Source: an uncultured virus (IMG/VR IMGVR_UViG_3300023205_000110) (lineage: Duplodnaviria > Heunggongvirae > Uroviricota > Caudoviricetes > Crassvirales). Taken from it: a DNA stretch of 33,573 bases. How positions within the stretch are numbered: the stretch's first letter is position 1; every line of letters begins with the position of its first letter. The notes under the pieces are model-generated. The model had not been told where the DNA came from, made no database searches, and saw only the letters and a program-made list of their open reading frames with translations. Location of the stretch: IMG/VR virus record IMGVR_UViG_3300023205_000110; one strand, 5' to 3'. Of the stretch, positions 13,351 through 29,653 are shown piece by piece. Position numbers and translations under genes: made by a program.

Positions 13351-13530
13351 ATGGAAAGAACTGATATTTATTTTGTTGAAGATGATACATATTTCAATAA
13401 TAATGTTGAAGGTGTTGAAATTCATGCAGAATGCCTAAGTCAAGATTTTGACGATATTGCTTGGGAACCAATAGTTAACGATAGTCCTATTGTTGACCCT
13501 GAAAATGATGTTTTTGGTTATTATGATTAA
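13351..13530 (+). CDS. Small, very acidic protein (59 aa)
   Basis: Read manually as MERTDIYFVEDDTYFNNNVEGVEIHAECLSQDFDDIAWEPIVNDSPIVDPENDVFGYYD. Ends 12 nt before the next gene. Confidence 0.7.
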   Translation: MERTDIYFVEDDTYFNNNVEGVEIHAECLSQDFDDIAWEPIVNDSPIVDPENDVFGYYD

Positions 13531-13542
13531 ATAAATAAAATT

Positions 13543-14115
13543 ATGGAAAATATTAATATTAAAGTTATTCTTGATGAAGTTTTTGGTAAATCTTGTGATA
13601 GTATTACTTGTGATACCTGTAAATATAAAGAAGATTGTAATCTTCTTAATAAATTCATTAATGATATTAAAGATAAAGGTTTATCTCCAGACCAATATGT
13701 TAGAGGTTTAGCTTTATTTGTATATGTTCTTAAAGAACAAAAATATATTAATGATTTTGGTAAAACTCAAGAAGATATTATTAAACTTGTTACTGAAGAT
13801 GGATTTGAACTTGATTGGCTTATTAATCGTTGGGATAGTATAATTGAAGATAAAGATATTCTTAAACCTATTATTGCTGTTTTTCCTAAATATGCTAAAG
13901 ATATGATTATTAATATTGTTGAAGCTAATACTAAAATTAATCATTTTATAAGTCAACATATTGTTGATAGTTCTTATAAAGAACGTAATGAAATTATTAA
14001 AATGGTTAATCAATCTGTTGATAATAATAAACAAGAGAATAAGTTTAAGAATGTTAGTGATGATGAAATTTATGCTGAACTTAAACGTAGAAAAGCAAAT
14101 AAATCTGCTAAATAA
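13543..14115 (+). CDS. Hypothetical protein with an N-terminal Cys cluster
   Basis: 190 aa containing CDSITCDTCKYKEDC. Confidence 0.8.
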   Translation: MENINIKVILDEVFGKSCDSITCDTCKYKEDCNLLNKFINDIKDKGLSPDQYVRGLALFVYVLKEQKYINDFGKTQEDIIKLVTEDGFELDWLINRWDSIIEDKDILKPIIAVFPKYAKDMIINIVEANTKINHFISQHIVDSSYKERNEIIKMVNQSVDNNKQENKFKNVSDDEIYAELKRRKANKSAK

Positions 14116-14457
14116 TCCCACATAATTTTGATTGTATTTCTAACACTATTGTCTGTGAAGATAATAGTATTATTTCACTTGCTGATGATGGAGGAATTGA
14201 ACTCCGAAACTATGATATTGTTATTATCCGTTTTAATTTCTAATTGTAACTTTTGTAATAGTACGGTCTGTGAAGATAGTGCTATTAATATTTATCATAG
14301 TCCAAGTGTTATATGTCATATTTGATTTGGTGTTAATAATGTTATTATTGATTGTGAAATTAGTAATAACAATGTCTGTGTCAAACATTTCGTTTTATAT
14401 GATTTCGTATTTGTAGTTTTGCCTAGCATTGTCTGTGAAGATAGTGCTAGGCTTTTT
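14116..14457 (+). ncRNA. Structured RNA array: four GUGA-tetraloop hairpins with U-rich spacers
   Basis: Hairpins at 14145-14168, 14256-14287, 14340-14371 and 14421-14452. Stems differ in sequence but keep pairing, with G-U wobbles on the + strand. The last is followed by TTTTT. Confidence 0.75.
14176..14308 (+). ncRNA. Type I hammerhead ribozyme
   Basis: Stem I CACUUG/CAAGUG, core CUGAUGA plus one extra U, stem II GGAG/CUCC, GAAA, stem III CUAUGAUA/UAUCAUAG, GUC cleavage triplet at 14300-14302. Confidence 0.85.
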
Positions 14458-14493
14458 AGTATGTATATTATTAACTTTAAATATATAATTAAA

Positions 14494-14856
14494 ATGGATA
14501 ATTATGATTCTTTTATTTTTGATGGTCTATTAGATAGATACATTGAAGAACAAGCTAAGTTTAAAAAAGGACAAGTAGTTTATATGGAATATACTTATCA
14601 ATATCATAATCAAACTAAGCTTGGTGTTTGTGTTGGTATTGTAACCGAAGTTGGAATTACTAAAATCGAACGTACAGTAGGTAATAATAAATATATTAAT
14701 TATCCTATTGTATATACTGTAACTCATGCTAAAGGTGTTAGTCGTTGTGTTAGTGAATGTAAACTTGGTTCTGTATCTGAACATATTCTTAAAGAACGTC
14801 TTAAACGTGATGGTAAGAATAATGAACAAAATGCAGAGCCTACTAGTAATGACTAA
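14494..14856 (+). CDS. Hypothetical protein (SH3/KOW-like pattern)
   Basis: Likely start is ATG 14494 (MDNYDSF). Contains KFKKGQVVYM...GIVTEV. Confidence 0.75.
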   Translation: MDNYDSFIFDGLLDRYIEEQAKFKKGQVVYMEYTYQYHNQTKLGVCVGIVTEVGITKIERTVGNNKYINYPIVYTVTHAKGVSRCVSECKLGSVSEHILKERLKRDGKNNEQNAEPTSND

Positions 14857-14880
14857 CTATTTATGTTCATAATACATTCA

Positions 14881-14973
14881 TAGATACGGTTCTTTTGCTC
14901 TCTGTTGAATTTTCATATATAATCTGATTAATCTATCACGATTAATATTGAGTTCAATACAGGGCAAAAGAAC
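14881..14973 (+). repeat. Intergenic element copy 1 (long hairpin with core TGATTAATCTATCACGAT)
   Basis: Arms GTTCTTTTGC (14889) / GCAAAAGAAC (ending 14973). The core recurs at 29636-29653. Confidence 0.7.
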
Positions 14974-15015
14974 TAGCTAATAAATGTTAAACTAAAAATT
15001 TAATACAGTTTTATT

Positions 15016-15588
15016 ATGAATTATATTACTTATAAACAAATTGATGGTACTATTACATCTGGATTTAAAGTTAAACTTTATGATATAGTTACTTTGAATA
15101 CTGGCTATTGGAAAGATAAACTTGCTATTGTTCTATATATTAATGAGGATAAAAAACAAATTAAAGTTCGTATTATTGAATGTGGTATGAACTTAACTCT
15201 TAAAGTTAAAGATGTTCAATTTGTTAATCATAATAATAGAACTGCTGCTCGTTCTTATATTGATTTATGTAATAAACTATCTAAAACCTTTCGTGATAAA
15301 TATACTGATAAACAGTATATAAAAGATAATTGGTTTACTGATAAGTTTATTATTAATGATATAACTGCTGATACTATTGCTAAAGGTATTGGTCAATATA
15401 TTACTAATACTGATAGTGATAGATATTCTGTTAGTGCTATTATGTGGCTTAGTGATATTAAAGATTATATAGATGCTTTACTTAAATATGGTGATTTTGA
15501 TTTTGTTGCTAAAGCATTTAAAATTTATAATATTACTGATACTAGATTTGAACTTATTCGTAAACTTTATCATTATTTCTATGATTGA
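15016..15588 (+). CDS. Hypothetical protein with a KOW-like N-terminal domain
   Basis: YDIVTLNTGYWKDKLAIVLYINEDKKQIKV fits the KOW pattern. Confidence 0.7.
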   Translation: MNYITYKQIDGTITSGFKVKLYDIVTLNTGYWKDKLAIVLYINEDKKQIKVRIIECGMNLTLKVKDVQFVNHNNRTAARSYIDLCNKLSKTFRDKYTDKQYIKDNWFTDKFIINDITADTIAKGIGQYITNTDSDRYSVSAIMWLSDIKDYIDALLKYGDFDFVAKAFKIYNITDTRFELIRKLYHYFYD

Positions 15589-29591: not shown

Positions 29592-29653
29592 TAGATATGA
29601 TTCTTTTTGCCTGTATTCGATTTTATATATCTAAATGATTAATCTATCACGAT
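29592..29653 (+). repeat. Intergenic element copy 2
   Basis: TAGATA..TTCTTTT.GC...ATATAT...TGATTAATCTATCACGAT, colinear with 14881-14942. Confidence 0.7.

What the first reader, a model, noticed from the sequence alone, without database searches (positions are those of the whole stretch)
14223..14502. Array spacer 2 is complementary to the start codon region of the next gene
Seen: AUUAUCCGUUUUAAUU (14223-14238), inside the hammerhead stem III insert, pairs over 16 nt with AAUUAAAAUGGAUAAU (14487-14502). That target contains the ATG at 14494, and the only non-Watson-Crick pair is a G-U at the U of AUG. Inference: an in-window target supporting the antisense model, where ribozyme cleavage could release or deliver this repression. 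The AT-richness raises the chance of coincidence.
Basis: partly seen in the sequence, partly recalled or inferred. Interest (0 to 1): 0.7.

Follow-up and report, generated by a model that had tools for sequence, protein, structure and literature searches.

The report
Ribozyme loop complementary to next gene's start
In the abundant human-gut phage crAssphage, a conserved 14-16-base stretch inside a predicted self-cleaving hammerhead RNA matches the start-codon region of the next gene, which may be a translation brake but is not yet proven to be one.

Summary
14223-14238 pairs 16/16 (15 Watson-Crick pairs, one G-U at the U of AUG) with 14487-14502, which covers the annotated gp09 start at 14494.

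The window is a strain of crAssphage (Carjivirus communis). The 378-nt gp08-gp09 spacer holds a well-supported type I hammerhead, four GUGA-capped hairpins and a terminator.

Tested a priori (this non-coding RNA against the next start region), the match is rare:
- 3 of 3000 shuffles reach 16.
- 0 of 11008 pseudo-targets reach 16.
- gp09 is the only one of 42 annotated genes above 12.

One such helix somewhere in a 33-kb AT-rich window is still expected about 0.45 times per strand.

Across 86 distinct relatives, the 14-nt core of each arm (14224-14237 and 14488-14501) is nearly invariant, while the sequence flanking the ribozyme-side arm varies. One-sided changes mostly keep wobble pairing. There is no compensatory double change, and two variants break pairs.

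Verdict: antisense occlusion of the gp09 start by a ribozyme-borne seed is plausible (about 45%) but unproven. The "CRISPR-like array" framing is not supported. No expression data could be obtained.

The parts
13543..14115 (+). gp08 homologue (190 aa, hypothetical protein); the non-coding RNA would be its 3' untranslated tail
   Evidence: ORF list; annotated KP06_gp08 in BK010471.1; no PHROG match and no Pfam match above cut-off
14142..14171 (+). Hairpin H1: 13-bp stem with a GUGA loop and the conserved top UGUCU/AGAUA
   Evidence: coordinates. helix 1: 3 of 13 pairs have changes on both sides (UA<->CG in 28 and 33 sequences, AU<->GC in 8); 98.1% of cells paired
14176..14308 (+). Type I hammerhead ribozyme candidate. 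Stem I 14176-81/14303-08; CUGAUGA 14182-88; extra U 14189; stem II 14190-93/14202-05 with loop GAAUUGAA; GAAA 14206-09; stem III 14210-17/14293-300 with A14209-U14301; predicted cleavage after C14302
   Evidence: Sequence. The core and stems I and II lie in a conserved run (diversity below 0.05 per column) across 85 sequences. Stem III has G-C to A-U in 10 sequences and stem I has C-G to U-A in 1 sequence. Position 14302 is C 81, U 4, A 1, G 0 of 86. The consensus fold recovers all three stems. No Rfam hammerhead model matches
14223..14238 (+). The finding's left arm ('spacer'): single-stranded stretch in the stem III insert; conserved core 14224-14237 UUAUCCGUUUUAAU
   Evidence: Core diversity is 0.008 (0 of 14 columns variable), against 0.23 and 0.20 in the 5 and 17 nt that flank it. 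It is unpaired in the consensus fold of 35 distinct ribozyme sequences
14256..14287 (+). Hairpin H2 (GUGA loop) inside the stem III insert
   Evidence: helix 6: 92.8% of cells paired, one constant G-A mismatch, 3 pairs vary on one side only
14340..14371 (+). Hairpin H3 (GUGA loop), downstream of the cleavage site
   Evidence: I8; helix 7: 2 pairs with changes on both sides
14421..14460 (+). Hairpin H4 plus U run: terminator-like site between the two arms
   Evidence: the only terminator-like site in 13400-15200; shuffle mean 0.2. helix 8. Weak likeness to the terminator hairpin of Bacteroides sRNA BTnc201 (E 0.17, far below its gathering score)
14453..14486 (+). Nearly invariant stretch between the terminator and the target; unexplained, possibly a promoter or leader of gp09
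   Evidence: diversity 0.010. No convincing shared promoter motif was found
14487..14502 (+). The finding's right arm (target): -7 to +9 around the gp09 AUG (14494-14496); conserved run 14488-14503
14494..14856 (+). gp09 homologue (120 aa, unknown function; predicted N-terminal helix, small beta-barrel, C-terminal helix)
   Evidence: No Pfam or PHROG match. Model pLDDT 69.7. No structural match at E <= 0.001

Best explanation
The gp08-gp09 intergenic region of crAssphage encodes a structured non-coding RNA built around a type I hammerhead ribozyme. I propose the following.

- The ribozyme's enlarged stem III loop displays a conserved single-stranded 14-16-nt seed (14223-14238).
- This seed base-pairs with the translation initiation region of gp09 (-7 to +9 around the AUG) and blocks ribosome access.
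- On transcripts that read through the H4 terminator, the pairing would act in cis, as a long-range pseudoknot-type helix.
- Self-cleavage after C14302 would then separate the seed, which stays on the gp08 3' tail, from the gp09 message. After cleavage the pairing could act only in trans.

Shown: the complementarity, its rarity for this specific pairing, the conservation of both arms, and the in-silico case for the hammerhead.

Inferred: that the two arms meet as RNA, that translation is affected, and any role of cleavage.
For: 1. The match is 16/16 pairs across the start codon.
2. It is rare for this specific pairing: 3 of 3000 shuffles, 0 of 11008 pseudo-targets, and gp09 alone among 42 annotated genes exceeds 12.
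3. In the whole 97-kb BK010471 genome, the 14-mer ATTAAAATGGATAA occurs within one mismatch only three times. All three lie within 500 nt here. The backwards-read control gives 0.
4. In 86 distinct sequences, the left-arm core 14224-14237 is as conserved as the catalytic core (diversity 0.008). Its flanks vary and carry indels (0.23 and 0.20). The conserved runs 14224-14237 and 14488-14503 coincide with the helix.
5. Five helix pairs vary on one side only and stay paired through wobble. One of these is G14230A, which turns the G-U into A-U.
6. Within 14116-14560, the gp09 start is by far the best partner of the seed: -14.7 kcal/mol against -4.7 for the next.
7. In a modelled read-through RNA the helix has an ensemble probability of about 0.78.
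8. The seed is unpaired in the consensus fold of the ribozyme.
9. In another crAss-like phage, long intergenic regions are among the most highly transcribed early RNAs (bioRxiv 10.1101/2020.03.07.982082, passages read).
Against: - There is no compensatory double change in any of the 16 pairs across 86 distinct sequences, so pairing is not demonstrated.
- The terminal pair 14238/14487 is unpaired in 21 of 86. About half of random transitions would keep wobble pairing anyway.
- L020 (T14225C) and a contig of run X14 (C14229A, depth 48.9) break internal pairs without compensation.
- The target's conservation is not specific to the helix. Another 34 nt upstream are equally invariant, and codons 1-3 are constrained by coding.
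- The terminator H4 lies between the arms. Cis pairing therefore needs read-through, and the hammerhead should cleave before the target is even transcribed.
- The target is very AU-rich and pairs easily. A non-conserved segment, 14125-14137, also pairs with it (13 bp; ensemble probability about 0.17).
- One helix of 16 or more somewhere in the window is expected about 0.45 times per strand (my estimate; the distribution agrees).
- There is no evidence on transcription or cleavage. Only assembled contigs of runs were available.
Confidence: 0.45

Rival explanations
1. Coincidence between two elements that are each conserved for their own reasons. The left arm would be conserved for the ribozyme's own folding or regulation. 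Candidate roles are alternative pairing of GUUUU (14230-34) with the catalytic GAAAC (14206-10), a weak local hairpin, or a contact with loop II. The right arm would be conserved as promoter, leader, start codon and first codons of gp09.
For: - Single-sequence folds of the window, L003 and L005 pair 14230-34 with 14206-10, and 14222-27 with 14212-17, which gives an inactive fold.
- 14232-39 can pair with loop II (8 bp, 2 G-U, -2.4 kcal/mol).
- There is no covariation between the arms.
- The invariant block extends 34 nt beyond the target.
- AU-rich sequence makes such matches easy: 13 helices of 13 nt or more lie on the + strand of the window.
Against: - The a priori chance is about 0.001.
- The conserved island and the helix have the same boundaries to within 1 nt, which an unrelated role would not predict.
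- The alternative partners are weak (-4.7 kcal/mol or worse).
- The alternative fold is not predicted in the divergent clade, which lacks 14218-14222 (L014).
Confidence: 0.3
2. A DNA-level element: two inverted copies of a 14-16-bp protein-binding site, about 264 bp apart. One copy overlaps the gp09 start or promoter and would act as an operator. The other would be an auxiliary site, with DNA looping between them.
For: - As double-stranded DNA the arms are the same site in opposite orientation with one central difference. In L019/L065 they are identical over 14 nt.
- The motif is unique to this 500-bp region in 97 kb.
- The right site has partial dyad symmetry (AATTA-N7-TAATT), read directly from the sequence.
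- The arm-to-arm distance stays at 263-274 bp despite many indels between them.
Against: - The left site lies exactly in an exposed loop of a conserved RNA structure.
- The one-sided changes are mostly of the kind that RNA wobble tolerates.
- The third, direct copy in gp08 (13996-14009) is not conserved and is absent in the divergent clade.
- No DNA-binding protein was identified nearby.
- Spacing of 263-274 bp is not held in helical phase.
Confidence: 0.12
3. A decaying relic of an inverted duplication of the gp09 start region, without present function.
For: The arms are an inverted repeat, and similarity stops abruptly at 16 nt.
Against: A relic should decay like its flanks. Instead the 14-nt core is nearly invariant in 86 distinct sequences, including a clade with 76-90% gp09 protein identity, while the flanks vary.
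Confidence: 0.04

Closest known systems
Hammerhead ribozymes in intergenic regions of phages and prophages (Perreault et al. 2011, PMC3088659; passages read)
   Same: It has the CUGAUGA...GAAA core, three helices and cleavage after a UH dinucleotide. It lies between phage genes on the coding strand, where such ribozymes are thought to cut long transcripts into gene-length pieces. One archaeal-virus example sits 13 nt upstream of a start codon.
   Different: Stem III carries a 75-nt insert (14218-14292) holding a conserved single-stranded island and a hairpin. No Rfam hammerhead model detects it. No antisense role of a hammerhead loop appears in the passages I read.
Antisense or long-range occlusion of a translation initiation region (small-RNA control and 5'-leader sequestration; phage examples such as P22 sar and lambda OOP are recalled, not checked here)
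   Same: There is a contiguous duplex of 14-16 bp across the start codon, within the ribosome footprint, and the seed is presented as single-stranded RNA on a structured scaffold.
   Different: The seed is encoded on the same strand upstream rather than on the opposite strand. It is embedded in a self-cleaving ribozyme, and a terminator lies between seed and target. Nothing is shown experimentally.
Ribozyme-based gene control (glmS ribozyme; discontinuous hammerhead with a very large loop in mouse 3' UTRs, mentioned in PMC3088659)
   Same: A self-cleaving RNA lies in an untranslated region, where cleavage could change the fate of a message.
   Different: No ligand or cofactor is implied. The proposed link to expression is base pairing of a peripheral loop, not cleavage-dependent decay.
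Highly transcribed early intergenic RNAs of the crAss-like phage phi14:2 (bioRxiv 10.1101/2020.03.07.982082; passages read)
   Same: It is a long intergenic region in the early/replication gene block of a crAss-like phage, transcribed in the gene direction.
   Different: No sequence relation was tested. No ribozyme or antisense function is reported in the passages I read.

Membership tests
Hammerhead ribozyme (type I) | Conserved catalytic core: C3-U4-G5-A6-N7-G8-A9 and G12-A13-A14 | tested here: met
   CUGAUGA at 14182-88 and GAAA at 14206-09. All lie in a conserved run (diversity below 0.05 per column) across 85 sequences, and the 29-nt core string is identical in 99 of 101 sequences fetched. 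One extra U (14189) lies between A9 and stem II; it is present in 86 of 86. That such an extra base is tolerated in natural hammerheads is recalled, not tested.
Hammerhead ribozyme (type I) | Three helices around the core in the order I-core-II-GAAA-III-UH-I, with stem I open | tested here: met
   Stems I (6 bp), II (4 bp) and III (9 bp including A15.1-U16.1) are 100% paired in 86 sequences. There is one compensatory pair in stem I (C-G to U-A, 1 sequence) and one in stem III (G-C to A-U, 10 sequences). Stem II never varies. The consensus fold recovers all three stems.
Hammerhead ribozyme (type I) | Cleavage-site nucleotide 17 is any base but G | tested here: met
   Position 14302: C 81, U 4, A 1, G 0 of 86 distinct sequences.
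Hammerhead ribozyme (type I) | Match to a curated covariance model (Rfam hammerhead families) | tested here: not met
   There were 0 matches at gathering score in the window and no hammerhead family at E <= 10 in 13900-15100. My reading, not tested, is that the 75-nt insert in stem III defeats the models. This is a detection aid, not a defining feature.
Hammerhead ribozyme (type I) | Self-cleavage activity, and a tertiary contact between loop II and stem I or its flank | not testable with these tools
   Candidate partner of loop II: the invariant UUAAU at 14333-14337 (invariant columns). Pairing was judged by eye only.
Antisense control of translation initiation | Contiguous complementarity that covers the start codon or ribosome-binding region | tested here: met
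   The 16/16 pairs cover -7 to +9 of the AUG. Duplex energy is -14.7 kcal/mol.
Antisense control of translation initiation | Pairing maintained in evolution by compensatory changes | tested here: inconclusive
   Of the 16 pairs, 9 never vary, 5 vary on one side only (all kept paired by wobble), 0 vary on both sides, and 2 have unpaired cells. Two uncompensated breaks occur (L020; X14 contig).
Antisense control of translation initiation | Both RNAs (or one RNA holding both arms) exist in infected cells | not testable with these tools
   Only assembled contigs of wastewater and gut RNA libraries were on hand. They show presence of the sequence, not transcripts, ends or strand.
CRISPR array (implied by the words 'array' and 'spacer') | Near-identical direct repeats at regular spacing, separated by unique spacers | tested here: not met
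   There are four hairpin units plus one weak coding-region match. They are 65-88% identical to the reference copy, with spacing of 115, 84 and 81 nt. The stems covary. The shared motif GTCTGTGAAGAT occurs only 3 times in the 97-kb genome, all here.
Intrinsic terminator (H4) | G+C-containing hairpin followed by a U run | tested here: met
   14421-14452 has 14 pairs (6 G-C) and a 4-nt loop, followed by TTTTTAGTAT. It is the only such site in 13400-15200.

The most novel reading that the evidence does not exclude
The hammerhead is an RNA-sensing switch. Its conserved stem III island can pair either with the ribozyme's own GAAAC core and stem III strand (ribozyme off) or with the gp09 start region (ribozyme on, gp09 start blocked). 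Self-cleavage of the gp08 tail and translation of gp09 would then be coupled through a single 14-nt sequence. This would be a natural trans- or cis-RNA-gated ribozyme in the most abundant human-gut phage.
Probability: 0.1. Interest if true: 0.85.

Novelty: new variant of a known kind. Interest (0 to 1): 0.55.

Why it matters
crAssphage is among the most abundant viruses of the human gut, and almost nothing is known about how it regulates its genes.

I found no paper in the searchable library that mentions crAssphage together with 'hammerhead' (0 papers). Of the 7 papers holding 'crAssphage' and 'ribozyme', I read one, a review that uses the word only for introns. The other six were not opened.

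If the ribozyme cleaves and its loop controls the gp09 start, this would be a compact natural example of a self-cleaving RNA that carries an antisense seed. It would also give an entry point for studying early gene control in Crassvirales. If the match is coincidental, the conserved island in stem III still marks an unexplained functional part of the ribozyme.

Tried and rejected
- Rfam gave nothing at gathering score. At E <= 10 there were only chance-level hits, the best being the BTnc201 terminator hairpin at E 0.17.
- Searches for more distant relatives that might show covariation failed. gp09 as a single protein, the gp09 alignment, gp10 and the hammerhead core all returned the same 20-21 IMG/VR contigs.
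- A looser pattern (hammerhead plus hairpin top) added 23 unrelated coding-region matches.
- The loosened core pattern in metagenomes gave 80 usable loci. 78 of them are this lineage, and 2 (L066, L107) are unrelated hammerhead-like sites.
- Five GTDB contigs all carry the canonical haplotype.
- RNA libraries offered only contigs, which are broken by strain mixtures in the variable intergenic region. They say nothing on transcription, ends or cleavage.
- A possible third DNA copy of the motif in gp08 (13996-14009) was rejected as part of a system. It varies and is absent in the divergent clade.
- A start at the in-frame ATG 14461 was rejected. 3 of 86 sequences carry 1- or 2-nt insertions between 14461 and 14494, and BK010471 annotates 14494.
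- A shared promoter motif upstream of gp09 was not found. There were 9 loose matches against 4.1 expected, and none was convincing.
- CRISPR-repeat mimicry (Racr; PMC10651486, passages read) and N4-like DNA-hairpin promoters for the virion RNA polymerase were considered for the four hairpins but not tested. The phi14:2 preprint reports no common motif upstream of early transcripts.
- The function of gp09 remains unknown. There were no Pfam or PHROG matches. The model has pLDDT 69.7, and Foldseek found nothing at E <= 0.001, only weak SH3-like-barrel look-alikes.
- Earlier notes of this scan held nothing.
- One literature search was badly worded and useless.

Full report
**What the window is.** The region 13500-15000 matches Carjivirus communis (the prototypical crAssphage, BK010471.1) at 97.5% identity. 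Eight further crAssphage records match at 95-97%. In BK010471 the flanking genes are gp08 (window 13543-14115) and gp09 (window 14494-14856). Both are hypothetical proteins in the + strand early/replication block. The finding therefore concerns the 378-nt gp08-gp09 intergenic region.

**The observation.** They pair at 16 of 16 positions on the + strand RNA, with 15 Watson-Crick pairs and one G-U between G14230 and U14495, the U of the AUG. Neither end can be extended. ATG 14494 is the start annotated in BK010471. An in-frame ATG at 14461 is unlikely to be used, because 3 of 86 relatives carry 1-2-nt insertions between the two ATGs.

**What surrounds it.**
- Reading the sequence gives a complete type I hammerhead:
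  - stem I CACUUG/CAAGUG (14176-81/14303-08)
  - CUGAUGA (14182-88) followed by one extra U
  - stem II GGAG/CUCC with loop GAAUUGAA
  - GAAA (14206-09)
  - stem III CUAUGAUA/UAUCAUAG (14210-17/14293-300), closed by A14209-U14301
  - C14302 as the cleavage-site base
- Stem III encloses a 75-nt insert. It holds the finding's left arm and a hairpin, H2.
- Three more hairpins lie outside the ribozyme: H1, H3 and H4. All four have GUGA loops. H1, H2 and H4 share the top GUCUGUGAAGAU, a motif that occurs only three times in the 97-kb genome, all here.
- H4 is followed by a U run and is the only terminator-like site in 13400-15200.
- The region folds far better than shuffles (z = -5.8; 0 of 100 shuffles fold as well).
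- Rfam finds no hammerhead. I attribute this to the long insert, which I did not test.

**Comparative support for the structures.** I collected 21 IMG/VR loci (gp09 identity 76-100%), 80 metagenome loci and 5 GTDB contigs. Of 101 sequences examined, 99 carry the identical 29-nt core. The other two are unrelated hammerhead-like sites. An alignment of 86 distinct sequences gave the following results:
- Stem III has one G-C to A-U compensatory pair, in 10 sequences.
- Stem I has one C-G to U-A compensatory pair, in 1 sequence.
- Stem II is invariant.
- H1 has three covarying pairs, in 8 to 33 sequences.
- H3 has two pairs with changes on both sides. H4's four such pairs are single-sequence cells, probably from the misaligned L067.
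- The cleavage-site base is C in 81, U in 4, A in 1 and never G, as the hammerhead rule requires.

The in-silico case for the hammerhead is strong. Activity is untested.

**Is the complementarity more than chance?** It depends on the question asked.
- Scanning the whole window for any helix of 16 or more (at most one G-U, span at most 600) finds this one as the longest on either strand. But the length distribution (13:7, 14:3, 15:2, 16:1 on the + strand) is what base composition predicts. My hand estimate is about 0.45 helices of 16 or more per strand.
- Asking a priori whether the non-coding RNA pairs with the next start region gives a rare result:
  - 3 of 3000 dinucleotide shuffles reach 16.
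  - 0 of 11008 pseudo-targets reach 16.
  - Among 42 annotated + strand genes of BK010471, gp09 scores 16 and the next best score 12.
- In the 97-kb genome the 14-mer occurs within one mismatch only at the two arms and at one site in gp08. That third site is not conserved.

**Conservation.** This is the new evidence.
- The left-arm core 14224-14237 has diversity 0.008, with 0 of 14 columns variable.
- The 5 nt before it and the 17 nt after it have diversity 0.23 and 0.20, with indels and a 5-nt deletion in the divergent clade.
- The conserved runs, 14224-14237 and 14488-14503, coincide with the helix. The outermost pair, 14238/14487, is variable on both sides and unpaired in 21 of 86.
- The selected unit is therefore a 14-bp helix, if it is a helix at all.
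- Within 14116-14560 the gp09 start is by far the best partner of the island (-14.7 against -4.7 kcal/mol).

- Of the 16 pairs, 9 never vary, 5 vary on one side only and stay paired by wobble, none has a double change, and 2 have unpaired cells.
- The wobble-compatible changes are A14223G, C14229T, G14230A (which makes the G-U an A-U), A14491G and one more on the target side.
- L020 (T14225C) breaks a pair. A contig of run X14 carries C14229A with no change at 14496.
- Roughly half of random transitions keep wobble pairing, so these counts are compatible with pairing but do not demonstrate it.

**Mechanism.**
- The seed is unpaired in the consensus fold of the ribozyme. It lies 5 nt beyond stem III, so it is presented on a three-way junction.
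- In a modelled read-through RNA (14116-14560) the helix forms with an ensemble probability of about 0.78. That nested model has to open stems I and III. In reality the helix would be a pseudoknot with the ribozyme.
  - Cleavage after C14302 leaves the seed on the 5' product, so cleavage alone releases no small antisense RNA.
  - The ribozyme is complete 180 nt before the target is transcribed.
  - H4 should stop many transcripts before the target.
- I therefore propose that the seed blocks the gp09 start in uncleaved read-through RNA. After cleavage it could act only in trans, from the gp08 3' tail. I put this at about 45%.

**Rivals.**
- Coincidence, with the island serving the ribozyme itself (30%). 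Single-sequence folds pair 14230-34 with the catalytic GAAAC.
- Two inverted copies of a DNA-binding site (12%).
- A functionless relic (4%), which the conservation contradicts.

**Literature.**
- No paper in the searchable library holds both 'crAssphage' and 'hammerhead'.
- Seven hold 'crAssphage' and 'ribozyme'. The one review I read uses the word only for introns.
- Perreault et al. 2011 (passages read) describe hammerheads flanking prophage genes and one 13 nt upstream of a viral start codon. The passages I read describe no antisense loop.
- The phi14:2 preprint (passages read) reports very highly transcribed early intergenic regions in a crAss-like phage.
- Subscription papers and supplements were not searched.

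**Verdict.** The unreported hammerhead and its conserved stem III island are the solid part. The antisense function is a reasonable but unproven reading.

Noticed in passing
14926-14942 and 29637-29653: An exact 17-nt direct repeat, GATTAATCTATCACGAT, occurs in two intergenic regions about 14.7 kb apart. 0.02 matches are expected by chance, and 0 of 100 shuffles give 2. It may be a shared regulatory site.
   Followed up: partly
14889-14901 with 14961-14973: The gp09-gp10 intergenic region holds a 13-bp perfect helix at the base of a long hairpin. Part of this region (14878-14942) is 81.5% identical to another gut phage record, MT835852.
   Followed up: no
L067 (locus positions about 660-929): One low-coverage metagenome contig carries the divergent-clade hammerhead and seed. 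After H3 it continues into unrelated sequence with no H4 and no gp09 start. That sequence matches nothing in the phage collection. It is either a recombinant or a chimeric assembly.
   Followed up: partly
14125-14137 with 14483-14495: A second, non-conserved AU-rich segment upstream of H1 also pairs with the gp09 start region (13 bp, 2 G-U). It is in the minimum-energy fold of 14116-14520 and has a probability of about 0.17 in the longer RNA. It shows how easily this target finds partners.
   Followed up: partly
14333-14337 and loop II 14194-14201: The invariant UUAAU, about 25 nt downstream of stem I, could pair with AUUGA of the invariant loop II. This would be the kind of pseudoknot that stabilises many hammerheads. 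It was judged by eye from the invariant columns.
   Followed up: no
13996-14009: A direct copy of the target motif with one mismatch (ATTAAAATGGTTAA) lies around an in-frame internal ATG of gp08. It varies among strains and is absent in the divergent clade.
   Followed up: yes
14453-14486: The 34 nt between the terminator U run and the target are almost invariant in 85 sequences (diversity 0.010), although they are non-coding. This is unexplained. They might be a promoter or leader.
   Followed up: partly
14494-14856: gp09 is restricted to this phage lineage in IMG/VR. Its predicted fold is an N-terminal helix, a small beta-barrel and a C-terminal helix (pLDDT 69.7). Only weak SH3-like-barrel look-alikes were found (best E 0.019).
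   Followed up: partly
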